A stretch of DNA of 64,000 bases from Escherichia coli. Its GTDB lineage: Bacteria > Pseudomonadota > Gammaproteobacteria > Enterobacterales > Enterobacteriaceae. Shown piece by piece: positions 27,001 through 30,000 of this stretch. Positions within the stretch are counted from its first letter, which is position 1. The number at the start of each line of letters is the position of its first letter. A program made the position numbers. The stretch lies in NCBI RefSeq assembly GCF_030384885.1, contig NZ_CP128613.1. One strand, 5' to 3'.

Positions 27001-30000
27001 CTGCGACCTTATCGCCCACCAGCCGCCGCAGACTTTCTGGCAGGCGCTGCAACTGTGCTACTTCATCCAGTTGATTTTGCAGATCGAATCCAACGGACAC
27101 TCGGTATCGTTTGGTCGTATGGACCAGTATCTCTACCCGTACTATCGCCGCGACGTTGAACTGAACCAGACGCTGGATCGCGAACACGCCATCGAGATGC
27201 TACATAGCTGCTGGCTGAAACTGCTGGAAGTGAACAAGATCCGCTCCGGCTCGCACTCAAAAGCCTCTGCGGGAAGTCCGCTGTATCAGAACGTCACCAT
27301 TGGCGGGCAAAATCTGGTTGATGGTCAGCCGATGGACGCGGTGAATCCACTCTCTTACGCAATCCTCGAATCTTGCGGCCGCCTGCGTTCCACTCAGCCG
27401 AACCTCAGCGTGCGCTACCACGCGGGAATGAGTAACGATTTCCTCGATGCCTGCGTACAGGTGATTCGTTGCGGCTTCGGGATGCCCGCGTTCAACAACG
27501 ACGAAATCGTCATCCCGGAATTTATTAAACTCGGTATTGAACCGCAGGACGCTTACGACTACGCGGCGATTGGCTGTATCGAAACCGCCGTCGGTGGCAA
27601 ATGGGGCTATCGCTGCACCGGGATGAGCTTTATCAACTTCGCCCGCGTGATGCTGGCGGCGCTGGAAGGCGGTCGTGATGCCACCAGCGGCAAAGTGTTC
27701 CTGCCACAAGAAAAAGCGTTGTCAGCGGGTAACTTCAACAACTTCGATGAAGTGATGGACGCGTGGGACACGCAAATCCGTTACTACACCCGTAAATCAA
27801 TCGAAATCGAATATGTCGTCGACACCATGCTGGAAGAGAACGTGCACGATATTCTCTGCTCGGCGCTGGTGGATGACTGCATTGAGCGAGCGAAAAGTAT
27901 CAAGCAAGGCGGCGCGAAATATGACTGGGTATCGGGCCTGCAGGTCGGTATTGCCAACCTCGGCAACAGCCTGGCGGCAGTGAAGAAACTGGTGTTTGAA
28001 CAGGGCGCGATTGGTCAGCAACAACTGGCTGCCGCACTGGCGGATGACTTCGACGGCCTGACTCACGAGCAACTGCGTCAGCGGCTGATTAACGGCGCGC
28101 CGAAGTACGGCAACGACGACGATACTGTCGATACGCTGCTGGCTCGCGCTTATCAGACCTATATCGACGAACTGAAACAGTACCATAACCCGCGCTACGG
28201 TCGTGGTCCGGTTGGCGGCAACTATTACGCGGGTACGTCGTCTATCTCCGCTAACGTACCGTTTGGCGCGCAAACTATGGCAACGCCGGACGGGCGTAAA
28301 GCTCACACCCCGCTGGCAGAAGGCGCAAGCCCGGCTTCCGGTACTGATCATCTTGGCCCTACTGCGGTCATTGGCTCGGTGGGTAAACTGCCTACGGCAG
28401 CGATTCTCGGCGGCGTGTTGCTCAACCAGAAACTGAATCCGGCAACGCTGGAGAACGAATCTGACAAGCAGAAACTGATGATCCTGCTACGTACCTTCTT
28501 TGAGGTGCATAAAGGCTGGCATATTCAGTACAACATCGTTTCCCGCGAAACGCTGCTGGAAGCGAAAAAACATCCGGATCAATACCGCGATCTGGTGGTG
28601 CGCGTAGCGGGTTATTCCGCCTTCTTCACTGCGCTCTCTCCAGACGCACAGGACGATATCATCGCCCGTACTGAACATATGCTGTAATCTCCTTCGCCCG
28701 GTAACGGTTGTTGCCGGGCGAAAATACTCATCCCATCGATATTATTTTAATCCGAAATAAATTTGTGCTCCGCGTCACATTGTCATTACACTGTGGCGGT
28801 TTGCATTCATTGTCAGGAGCACATCTATGAGCGTAAAAGTTATCGTCACAGACATGGACGGTACTTTTCTGAGCGACGCCAAAACGTACAACAATGAGCG
28901 TTTTATGGTGCAATATCAGGAACTTAAAAAGCGTGGCATTGAGTTTGTTGTCGCCAGCGGTAATCAGTATTACCAGCTTATTTCGTTCTTTCCTGAGCTA
29001 AAGGATGAGATCTCTTTTGTCGCAGAAAACGGCGCATTGGTTTACGAACATGGCAAGCAGTTGTTCCACGGCGAATTAACCCGACATGAATCGCGGATTG
29101 TTATTGGCGAATTGCTAAAAGATAAGCAACTCAATTTTGTCGCATGCGGTCTGCAAAGTGCATATGTCAGCGAAAATGCCCCCGAAGCATTCGTCGCACT
29201 GATGGCAAAACACTACCATCGCCTGAAACCTGTAAAAGATTATCAGGAGATTGACGATGTGCTGTTTAAATTTTCGCTCAACCTGCCAGATGAGCAGATC
29301 CCCTTGGTCGTCGACAAACTGCACGTTGCGCTCGACGGCATTATGAAGCCGGTTACCAGTGGTTTTGGCTTTATCGACCTGATTATTCCTGGCCTGCATA
29401 AAGCGAATGGTATTTCGCGGTTACTGAAACGCTGGGATCTGTCACCGCAAAATGTGGTAGCGATTGGCGACAGCGGTAACGATGCGGAGATGCTGAAAAT
29501 GGCGCGTTATTCCTTTGCGATGGGCAATGCTGCGGAAAACATTAAACAAATCTCCCGTTACGCTACCGATGATAATAATCATGAAGGCGCGCTGAATGTG
29601 ATTCAGGCGGTGCTGGATAATAAACCGCCGTTTACTCTTTGATAATTGCCAATTCAGTTTATTGAGAAAGTGCATGTCATAATGCCGGATGCGGCGTGAC
29701 CGTCTTATCCGACCTACAAAATCATGCAAATTCAATATATTGCGATACGCTGTCAGGCCTGATAAGCGTAGCGCATCAGGCAATTTTGCATTTGTCATCA
29801 GTTTCAGTAGCCCTGACCCTATCAGGGCTACTGATAATAACTTACTCGATCCCTTTACTACGCAGGTAATCTTCGTAATTACCGCTAAAGTCGATCAAGC
29901 GTTCCGGGGTGATTTCCAGAATGCGAGTCGCCAGCGAGCTTACAAACTCACGGTCGTGAGAAACAAAGATCAGCGTTCCCTGATACAATTCCAGCGCCAT

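What the first reader, a model, noticed from the sequence alone, without database searches (positions are those of the whole stretch)
29643..29841. ybiU is absent: only a 199 bp REP-containing spacer between ybiV and ybiT
In the K-12 order I recall (ybiT, ybiU, ybiV), a roughly 1.26 kb gene ybiU (DUF1479) lies between ybiT and ybiV. Here ybiV and ybiT are convergent and separated by only 199 bp containing two REP elements and a 12 bp stem hairpin, with no ybiU remnant. This is a second gene-content difference from K-12 in the window and suggests REP-associated deletion or lineage-specific absence.
Basis: partly seen in the sequence, partly recalled or inferred. Interest (0 to 1): 0.45.

Follow-up and report, generated by a model that had tools for sequence, protein, structure and literature searches.

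The report
Common ancient ybiU deletion allele
The gap is real, but it is an old and common E. coli gene-loss allele (about one complete genome in five, and also E. albertii), in which a 1.46 kb deletion removed the uncharacterised gene ybiU and left a pre-existing repeat element and the ybiT hairpin.

Summary
ybiV (28827-29642, +) and ybiT (29842-31434, -) converge across 199 bp, with no ybiU remnant anywhere in the 64 kb window.

The absence is not special to this genome. The same 199 bp junction occurs in 1052 of 5426 complete E. coli genomes, including B2 strains CFT073 and LF82, and in E. albertii. ybiW-ybiV-ybiU adjacency is conserved in Citrobacter, Klebsiella, Salmonella, Enterobacter and other genera. 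Presence is therefore ancestral, and the empty site is one old deletion of 1458 bp net.

The deletion runs from just after the ybiV stop to the left edge of a 152 bp BIME-1-like repeat (y REP, linker, z REP). That repeat and the hairpin beside ybiT also exist in ybiU+ genomes, so they are not deletion scars. No REP lies at the left breakpoint in any ybiU+ allele examined, so REP-REP recombination is not supported.

The hairpin shows four compensatory pair changes between the two allele classes, which marks it as a conserved ybiT 3' structure.

Verdict: an ordinary, already visible presence/absence polymorphism at a variable locus. Low interest.

The parts
28827..29642 (+). ybiV (sugar phosphatase, Cof-type HAD-IIB). 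Its last 7 codons (NKPPFTL) are the variant tail that goes with the ybiU-less allele.
   Evidence: ORF list; NCBIfam TIGR00099 E=1.8e-63; RefSeq annotation of the closest genome. The NKPPF(T/N)L tail is seen only in ybiU-less Escherichia alleles, against NTSPFNx elsewhere.
29643..29653 (.). 11 nt junction (TAATTGCCAAT) between the ybiV stop and the BIME. This is the deletion joint, where K-12 has 1469 bp.
   Evidence: Alignments; arithmetic 1469 vs 11 nt, net 1458 bp.
29654..29805 (.). BIME-1-like dispersed repeat element, about 152 bp: outer arms, y REP, long linker and z REP.
   Evidence: Window 29654-29805 matches many other E. coli chromosomal sites at about 85%. End-to-end alignment with the K-12 fepA-entD copy and with the K-12 ybiU-ybiT copy.
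29684..29717 (+). y-type REP.
   Evidence: 3 mismatches to the 34 nt y consensus; weak Rfam naRNA4 (REP-derived RNA) hit over 29676-29714.
29718..29752 (.). 35 nt L-type linker with an IHF-consensus-like motif, ATTCAATATATTG, at 29730-29742.
   Evidence: Motif located. It has one mismatch to WATCAANNNNTTR (consensus from my own knowledge). The linker is conserved in the fepA-entD copy. The BIME-1 definition is in PMC3333891.
29753..29781 (-). z-type REP, inverted relative to the y REP.
   Evidence: 2 mismatches to the 29 nt z consensus on the - strand.
29805..29833 (-). ybiT 3' stem-loop: 12 bp perfect stem, 5 nt loop, starting 9 nt after the ybiT stop, with no U-run after it.
   Evidence: RNA fold. 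It sits at the same position in all Escherichia alleles, with 4 compensatory pair changes between empty and ybiU+ alleles. The terminator scan found none because a T-run is lacking.
29842..31434 (-). ybiT (ABC-F family ATPase), convergent with ybiV.
   Evidence: NCBIfam NF011646 at 1066.7 bits against a cut-off of 762; RefSeq annotation.

Best explanation
The 199 bp interval is the 'empty' allele of an old ybiU presence/absence polymorphism in the genus Escherichia. In an ancestor that already carried ybiV-terminator-ybiU-BIME-hairpin-ybiT, a single deletion of 1458 bp net removed four things: the ybiV terminator hairpin, the ybiU upstream region, ybiU itself, and the 52 bp downstream of it. 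The deletion ran from 0-11 nt after the ybiV stop to the left edge of the BIME-1-like element. What remains is 11 nt of joint, the intact BIME and the ybiT 3' stem-loop. This allele has persisted or spread by homologous recombination. It is now the normal state of phylogroup B2 E. coli, of E. albertii, and of the lineage the window comes from. In that lineage it sits at the end of a locally divergent block, which fits import by recombination. As to function, ybiV and ybiT transcripts now converge on the BIME plus stem-loop, which presumably provide 3'-end structure for both; this step is inferred, not shown. The cell has lost the last gene of the uncharacterised, YciT-regulated ybiY-ybiW-ybiV-ybiU cluster. 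That gene encodes a PF07350 (DUF1479/Gig2-like) protein.
For: Shown: the junction and absence and the K-12 order. The identical 199 bp junction, alignable without gaps, occurs in the window, CFT073, 22KM0354 and E. albertii at 88-91.5% identity between lineages. The contiguous junction is in 1052 of 5426 genomes. ybiU at >=80% coverage is in 4228 genomes and there is no match in 1177. ybiW-ybiV-ybiU adjacency holds in about 35 species across Citrobacter, Klebsiella, Salmonella, Enterobacter, Lelliottia, Trabulsiella and Pluralibacter. K-12 ybiU is 82-86% nt identical to Citrobacter ybiU, comparable to the flanks (ybiW about 84.6%, ybiV about 79%), so inheritance looks vertical. The ybiV terminator hairpin is conserved after ybiV in all ybiU+ taxa and in E. 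whittamii, which carries the same NKPPFTL tail, but is missing in the empty allele. The BIME sits at the same distance (3 nt) from the hairpin in both allele classes, so it predates the deletion. The closest complete genome has no ybiU-like DNA elsewhere on its chromosome. The divergent block at about 22.5-30 kb ends at the junction. YbiU is PF07350 with PDB entries 2DBI and 2CSG, and the cluster context is from PMC8464067.
Against: Polarity rests on parsimony and synteny, not on a dated tree. E. albertii, an early-branching Escherichia, has the empty allele. Two other taxa (Enterobacteriaceae UBA5654 and Superficieibacter) have ybiV next to ybiT without ybiU, although no ybiW was detected beside ybiV in those loci either. 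BIME orthology between the allele classes rests on position only, because BIME copies at unrelated loci are just as similar, about 85%. The window's own genome is not in the collection (99.4% to 2013C-4282), so 'ybiU nowhere else in the genome' is shown only for a proxy chromosome. The proposed 3'-end role of the BIME and hairpin is untested, and there is no canonical terminator.
Confidence: 0.85

Rival explanations
1. REP/BIME-mediated deletion: the REP elements themselves caused the loss of ybiU. This could be through recombination between two REP copies, TnpA-REP (RAYT) cleavage, or replication slippage promoted by the BIME palindrome.
For: The right breakpoint lies within 11 nt of the BIME outer edge. 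The left breakpoint lies at the position of another hairpin, the ybiV terminator, so a deletion between two structured sites is conceivable. REP/BIMEs are described as substrates of TnpA-REP and as IS targets (PMC3333891).
Against: No REP-like sequence, even allowing 8 mismatches, lies between ybiV and ybiU in the K-12-type allele or in three ybiU2 alleles, so there is no partner for REP-REP recombination. The BIME is intact and identical in layout to the ybiU+ copy. TnpA-REP cleaves at iREP and linker sites, not outside the outer arms. One event cannot establish a breakpoint preference.
Confidence: 0.12
2. The empty site is ancestral in Escherichia, and ybiU was gained by insertion or HGT in most E. 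coli.
For: E. albertii has the empty site. Two very different ybiU alleles (75% nt) occupy the same site in Escherichia, which shows the gene has been replaced at least once. K-12 YbiU is 91-96% aa identical to Citrobacter YbiU, slightly above YbiV at 90%.
Against: The ybiV-ybiU adjacency and the conserved ybiV terminator are family-wide. nt divergence of K-12 ybiU from Citrobacter matches that of the flanks. The empty allele lacks the ybiV terminator, which E. whittamii with the same YbiV tail still has. No mobile-element signatures flank ybiU.
Confidence: 0.08
3. Assembly artefact: ybiU was collapsed out or mis-assembled in this genome.
For: None found. One unrelated genome (HH97) does show a junk-filled interval at this locus, so assembly errors do occur here.
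Against: The same junction is present in 1052 independent complete genomes and in E. albertii. The sequence is clean, with an intact BIME and hairpin.
Confidence: 0.01

Closest known systems
ybiV-ybiT junction of phylogroup B2 E. coli (e.g. CFT073 NC_004431.1 879909-880107; LF82) and of E. albertii NBRC 107761
   Same: Same 199 bp length, same 11 nt joint, same BIME and same hairpin variant (CAGTAGCCCTGA...TCAGGGCTACTG), same NKPPF(T/N)L YbiV tail, and no ybiU.
   Different: 9-11% nucleotide divergence from the window's copy. The window's copy is a third deep branch of the same allele, and its flanks (ybiW, ybiV) are also unusually divergent.
K-12 ybiU-ybiT intergenic region (BIME-1 plus ybiT 3' hairpin)
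   Same: Same element order (outer arm, y REP, L linker, z REP, outer arm, 3 nt, hairpin, ybiT stop). 84% identity over 182 nt.
   Different: K-12 has 1469 bp (ybiV terminator, ybiU and 52 bp) where the window has 11 nt. The hairpin sequence differs at 4 stem pairs, all compensated.
BIME-1 / REP pair with IHF-site linker (Bachellier/Gilson classification as summarised in PMC3333891), e.g. the K-12 fepA-entD copy
   Same: Two inverted REPs (y and z) separated by a long conserved linker with an IHF-like motif. Single copy at the locus, extragenic, between convergent genes, and dispersed at many sites per genome.
   Different: The z1 versus z2 subtype was not resolved here. IHF binding is untested.

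Membership tests
BIME-1 (REP pair with long linker) | Two REP palindromes in inverted orientation, one y-type and one z-type | tested here: met
   y REP at 29684-29717 (+), 3/34 mismatches. z REP at 29753-29781 (-), 2/29 mismatches. The consensus sequences were recalled from memory, and the z1 versus z2 subtype was not resolved.
BIME-1 (REP pair with long linker) | Long, conserved L linker that frequently carries an IHF site (PMC3333891) | tested here: inconclusive
   The 35 nt linker is conserved against the fepA-entD and ybiU-ybiT copies. ATTCAATATATTG at 29730-29742 is one mismatch from WATCAANNNNTTR. Actual IHF binding cannot be tested here.
BIME-1 (REP pair with long linker) | Dispersed, multi-copy, extragenic; single copy at each locus | tested here: met
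   A 241 bp query centred on the spacer finds a median of 17 places per genome. Unrelated loci match window 29654-29805 at about 85%. There is one copy here, between convergent genes.
ybiU / PF07350 (DUF1479, Gig2-like) gene | Any coding remnant of YbiU in the interval or the window | tested here: not met
   tblastn of YbiU1 and YbiU2 against the 64 kb window gives a best E of 0.8. blastn with a ybiU-containing query finds one place only, the anchor, on the closest complete chromosome.
Rho-independent (intrinsic) terminator | G+C-rich stem-loop followed by a U/T run | tested here: not met
   The 12 bp stem is present, but no T-run follows on either strand and the scan reports 0 terminator-like sites.
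Conserved structured 3' element of ybiT | Stem maintained by compensatory substitutions across alleles | tested here: met
   Pairs 2-28, 5-25, 6-24 and 10-20 change on both sides between empty alleles (window, B2, E. albertii) and ybiU+ alleles (K-12, 2020N21-246, SCPM). Pairing is kept in all but two sequence-by-position cases: 7-23 in 2020N21-246 and 1-29 in SCPM-O-B-8794. Only two allele classes exist, so this amounts to one evolutionary contrast.
REP-REP recombination deletion | REP copies at both ends of the deleted segment in the undeleted allele | tested here: not met
   No REP-like match, allowing up to 8 mismatches, in the ybiV-ybiU spacer of K-12 or of the ybiU2 alleles L005, L008 and L009.

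The most novel reading that the evidence does not exclude
The ybiV-ybiT interval may be a long-lived, trans-species multi-allelic polymorphism. Three deep alleles are present across Escherichia species: K-12-type ybiU, a 75%-identical ybiU2, and the empty allele, whose copies differ by 9-11%. On this reading, selection on the uncharacterised YciT-regulated ybiY-W-V-U pathway has kept them across species boundaries, rather than neutral loss plus recombination.
Probability: 0.2. Interest if true: 0.35.

Novelty: already known. Interest (0 to 1): 0.12.

Why it matters
It matters little on its own. ybiU is an accessory, uncharacterised gene, and its absence is the standard state of B2 E. coli and E. 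albertii, visible in existing RefSeq annotation. There are three minor uses. First, the allele is a clean marker: ybiU presence or absence, the YbiV tail and the hairpin variant together type the locus. Second, natural ybiU-null lineages with ybiY-W-V intact could help in working out the YciT-regulated pathway. Third, the compensated ybiT 3' hairpin and the retained BIME are candidates for 3'-end processing studies at convergent genes.

Tried and rejected
1. Rfam scan of 29300-30200: only sub-threshold hits to REP-derived RNA families (naRNA4 at 26.4 bits against a gathering score of 59.5; ES036 at 26.1 against 37.6). Nothing else.

2. Promoter and terminator scan: no terminator-like site, and one weak promoter-like match that is no better than shuffles.

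3. HH97 'ybiU remnant' (H80): the 2.6 kb interval gives only poly-Pro/Gly junk ORFs and no annotation. I judged it an assembly artefact and dropped it.

4. The idea that the window is a cryptic-clade Escherichia, suggested by 92-94% identity at the junction. Rejected: over 24 kb it is 98% identical to ordinary E. coli, and only a local block is divergent.

5. The idea that the window is strain 2013C-4282. Rejected: 77 mismatches and 2 gaps in 13 kb, with identity only between about 25.06 and 31.13 kb.

6. Microhomology at the joint (TTTGA at both the ybiV and ybiU stops). Too short to count as evidence.

7. A donor for ybiU2: no sampled genus is closer than about 84% aa.

8. My first chimeric-query design was abandoned because ybiU+ genomes could have outranked the anchor. 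I redesigned it with a 2.5 kb anchor.

9. Two early Python calls failed because I assumed one locus per file.

10. Literature: no paper found that discusses ybiU distribution among phylogroups.
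Full report
OBSERVATION

The window has a + strand ORF at 28827-29642 (271 aa) and a - strand ORF at 29842-31434 (530 aa). They are separated by exactly 199 bp, 29643-29841. NCBIfam identifies them as a Cof-type HAD-IIB phosphatase and the ABC-F ATPase family PRK15064 (1066.7 bits against a cut-off of 762). The upstream genes are a glycyl-radical enzyme and its activase, and the downstream gene is L,D-transpeptidase LdtB. RefSeq annotation of the closest complete genome names them ybiY, ybiW, ybiV, ybiT and ldtB.

A K-12-type strain (CM5) has ybiV, then ybiU (1266 bp, 'DUF1479 domain-containing protein'), then convergent ybiT. tblastn with K-12 YbiU, and with a second divergent allele, against the whole 64 kb window gives only chance matches with best E = 0.8. 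There is no remnant.

ANATOMY OF THE 199 bp

The spacer has three parts.

(i) An 11 nt joint, TAATTGCCAAT, at 29643-29653.

(ii) An element of about 152 bp at 29654-29805. It contains a y-type REP at 29684-29717 (+, 3/34 mismatches) and an inverted z-type REP at 29753-29781 (-, 2/29 mismatches). I recalled the consensus sequences from memory. Between the REPs is a 35 nt linker carrying ATTCAATATATTG at 29730-29742, one mismatch from the IHF consensus WATCAANNNNTTR, which is also from my own knowledge. Outer arms flank the REPs: TCAGTTTATTGAGAAAGTGC at 29654-29673 and GCATTTGTCATCAG at 29788-29801. The whole 152 bp, not only the REPs, is a dispersed repeat. Unrelated chromosomal sites match window 29654-29805 at about 85%, and a 241 bp query centred on the spacer finds a median of 17 places per genome. 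The K-12 fepA-entD copy aligns end to end. This architecture matches the published definition of BIME-1: a single-copy y + z REP pair with a long, conserved L linker that often carries an IHF site (PMC3333891).

(iii) A stem-loop at 29805-29833, with 12 perfect pairs and a 5 nt loop, starting 9 nt after the ybiT stop on the ybiT sense strand. The 208 nt that cover the spacer (29643-29850, - strand) fold at -76.4 kcal/mol, z = -6.5 against shuffles. No T-run follows the stem on either strand, so no canonical intrinsic terminator is called. Rfam gives only sub-threshold hits to REP-derived RNA families.

HOW COMMON IS THE EMPTY SITE?

A 999 bp query across the junction is contiguous (>=80% covered) in 1052 of 5426 complete E. 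coli genomes. K-12 ybiU is found at >=80% coverage in 4228 genomes and not at all in 1177. CFT073 (phylogroup B2) has ybiT at 878316-879908 and ybiV at 880108-880923, again a 199 bp gap. LF82 (B2) also carries the junction. Representatives of other phylogroups carry ybiU: K-12 derivatives, O157:H7, O26:H11, O104:H4 and SMS-3-5. The absence is therefore the normal state of a major E. coli lineage, not a peculiarity of this window.

POLARITY: LOSS, NOT GAIN

A scan of one genome per species for YbiV relatives returned 46 loci. In about 35 of them ybiU follows ybiV directly, and ybiW precedes it in nearly all. These span many Citrobacter species, Klebsiella, Salmonella enterica subsp. diarizonae, Enterobacter, Lelliottia, Trabulsiella, Raoultella, Pluralibacter and others.

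K-12 ybiU is 82-86% nt identical to Citrobacter ybiU. That is in line with the flanks (ybiW about 84.6%, ybiV about 79%), so there is no sign of recent transfer.

In every ybiU+ taxon ybiV ends in ...NTSPFNx (or a close variant) and is followed at once by a conserved terminator hairpin of the form accggagc...gctccggtttt. The empty allele has a different tail (NKPPFTL or NKPPFNL) and lacks that hairpin. E. whittamii has the same NKPPFTL tail and does retain a terminator hairpin after it. Presence is therefore ancestral, and the empty site is a deletion that took the ybiV terminator with it.

ONE EVENT, AND OLD

The spacers of the window, 22KM0354, CFT073 and E. albertii NBRC 107761 are all exactly 199 bp. 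They align without gaps and share the 11 nt joint, the BIME and the hairpin variant. Pairwise identity is 98.5% within B2, but only 91-91.5% between the window and B2, 90.5% between the window and E. albertii, and 88-89% between B2 and E. albertii. One junction with deep divergence among its copies indicates a single ancient deletion. Its allele has either persisted across speciation or moved by homologous recombination.

BREAKPOINTS

In K-12, 1469 bp lie between the ybiV stop and the BIME left arm. They comprise the 151 bp ybiV-ybiU spacer with terminator and promoter region, ybiU (1266 bp), and 52 bp downstream. The window has 11 nt there, so the net difference is 1458 bp. That equals the difference in total spacer length, 1657 against 199.

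The BIME sits 3 nt from the hairpin in both allele classes. A BIME-less allele, 'E. coli' SCPM-O-B-8794, shows the hairpin alone. The most economical order of events is BIME insertion first and deletion second. The right breakpoint thus falls within 11 nt of the BIME outer edge, and the left breakpoint within 11 nt of the ybiV stop.

WAS IT 'REP-ASSOCIATED'?

The REPs and the hairpin are not scars, because ybiU+ genomes have them too. No REP-like sequence, even with 8 mismatches allowed, lies between ybiV and ybiU in the K-12-type allele or in three ybiU2 alleles. REP-REP recombination from any extant allele is therefore excluded. TnpA-REP cleavage sites lie at iREP and linker positions, not outside the arms.

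What remains is a positional coincidence: the deletion runs from one hairpin (the ybiV terminator) to the edge of a large palindromic element. That is compatible with structure-promoted slippage but cannot be established from one event. I give it about 0.12.

THE HAIRPIN BELONGS TO ybiT

Between the empty alleles (window, B2, E. albertii: CAGTAGCCCTGA/TCAGGGCTACTG) and the ybiU+ alleles (K-12, 2020N21-246, SCPM: CCGTCACCCCGA/TCGGGGTGACGG), four stem positions change on both sides with pairing preserved: 2-28, 5-25, 6-24 and 10-20. This supports a selected RNA or DNA structure at the ybiT 3' end. It is one evolutionary contrast, not four independent ones. It also shows that the allele-specific sequence extends from the last codons of ybiV to the ybiT stop.

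WHICH GENOME, AND IS ybiU ELSEWHERE?

The junction segment is 100% identical to E. coli 2013C-4282 (NZ_CP027579.1). Over 13 kb, however, the window differs from that genome by 77 mismatches and 2 gaps, and is identical only from about 25.06 to 31.13 kb. Over 24 kb it is 99.4% identical to 2013C-4282 and about 98% identical to ordinary ybiU+ E. coli. The source is therefore a relative of 2013C-4282 that is absent from the collection.

A chimeric query (2.5 kb ybiR-mntR-opgE anchor plus K-12 ybiU, sensitive blastn) ranks NZ_CP027579.1 first with one place in the record. ybiU+ genomes show two. There is thus no ybiU-like DNA elsewhere on that proxy chromosome. The window's own genome and any plasmids could not be tested.

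A sliding comparison shows that window positions from about 22.5 to 30 kb (moeB, fsa, ybiY, ybiW, ybiV) are 89-96% identical to K-12 and CFT073. From 30 kb on, identity is mostly 97-98%, with some dips. The empty allele lies at the end of a divergent block, which fits import by recombination.

WHAT WAS LOST

YbiU is a PF07350 protein (Gig2-like, formerly DUF1479; E = 2e-154). Solved structures exist (2DBI and 2DBN for E. coli, 2CSG for Salmonella) but no function has been assigned. It is listed among E. coli genes with no functional information (PMC6412132). A ChIP-exo study places it in a YciT-regulated, uncharacterised cluster with ybiV, ybiW, ybiY and fsaA (PMC8464067). ybiU is the last gene in transcription order, so the deletion leaves the rest of the cluster intact.

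OTHER STATES OF THE LOCUS

The ybiV-ybiT interval is a variable spot with several other states.
- A second ybiU allele, 75% nt and 84% aa identical to K-12 ybiU, occupies the same site in 159 E. coli genomes, in Escherichia sp. E1V33 and in 'E. coli' SCPM-O-B-8794. It is roughly equidistant from all sampled genera.
- A 5 kb LacI/MFS/TIM-barrel cassette lies between ybiU and ybiT in some strains.
- E. whittamii has a 1.08 kb AT-rich islet with small ORFs, one of them DUF6960.

VERDICT

The feature is real and correctly described. It is an ordinary, common and old deletion allele that is already visible in public annotation. The REP pair and the hairpin are pre-existing neighbours, not products of the deletion. 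Interest is low. The most novel reading that remains open is a selectively maintained trans-species polymorphism at this locus, which I rate at about 0.2 probability.

Noticed in passing
window ~22500-30000 (moeB, fsa, ybiY, ybiW, ybiV): This block is only 89-96% identical to K-12 and CFT073, while sequence from 30 kb onward is mostly 97-98%. It looks like a recombinant import from a divergent Escherichia lineage that ends at the ybiV-ybiT junction.
   Followed up: partly
whole window vs NZ_CP027579.1: The window is not from strain 2013C-4282. It is 99.4% identical over 24 kb, with 77 mismatches and 2 gaps in 13 kb, and identical only from about 25.06 to 31.13 kb. The source genome is not in the complete-genome collection.
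   Followed up: partly
L005:4965-6224 (E. coli 2020N21-246); also L008, L009: A second, deeply divergent ybiU allele (75% nt and 84% aa identity to K-12 ybiU) sits at the same site in 159 complete E. coli genomes and two other Escherichia lineages. It is about equally distant from all sampled genera, and no donor was identified.
   Followed up: partly
L006:9233-14310 (E. coli RIVM_C037134): A cassette of about 5 kb (LacI-family regulator, MFS transporter, TIM-barrel protein) is inserted between ybiU and ybiT. The LacI gene overlaps the last bases of ybiU. The same arrangement was seen in several strains.
   Followed up: no
L041:7817-8888 (Escherichia whittamii): A 1.08 kb AT-rich islet replaces ybiU, the BIME and the usual hairpin. 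It has small ORFs: one of 93 aa with no Pfam hit and one of 99 aa matching DUF6960 at E = 8e-9. ybiV keeps the NKPPFTL tail and a terminator hairpin.
   Followed up: partly
L004:2850-5470 (E. coli HH97): A 2.6 kb unannotated interval between ybiV and ybiT, full of proline- and glycine-rich junk ORFs with two short ybiU-like pieces. Probably a low-quality assembly stretch over ybiU.
   Followed up: partly
window 29805-29833: The ybiT 3' hairpin differs between empty and ybiU+ alleles at four stem pairs, all compensated. No U-run follows it, so it is a conserved structure but not a canonical terminator.
   Followed up: yes
window 24438-24471 and 49589-49674: Other y-type REP copies in the window. 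One lies between moeB and fsa, and a pair lies near 49.6 kb.
   Followed up: no
L032 and L033 (Enterobacteriaceae UBA5654; Superficieibacter): ybiV lies directly next to convergent ybiT (54 and 212 bp gaps) with neither ybiU nor ybiW nearby. This is a different local arrangement in these genera.
   Followed up: no
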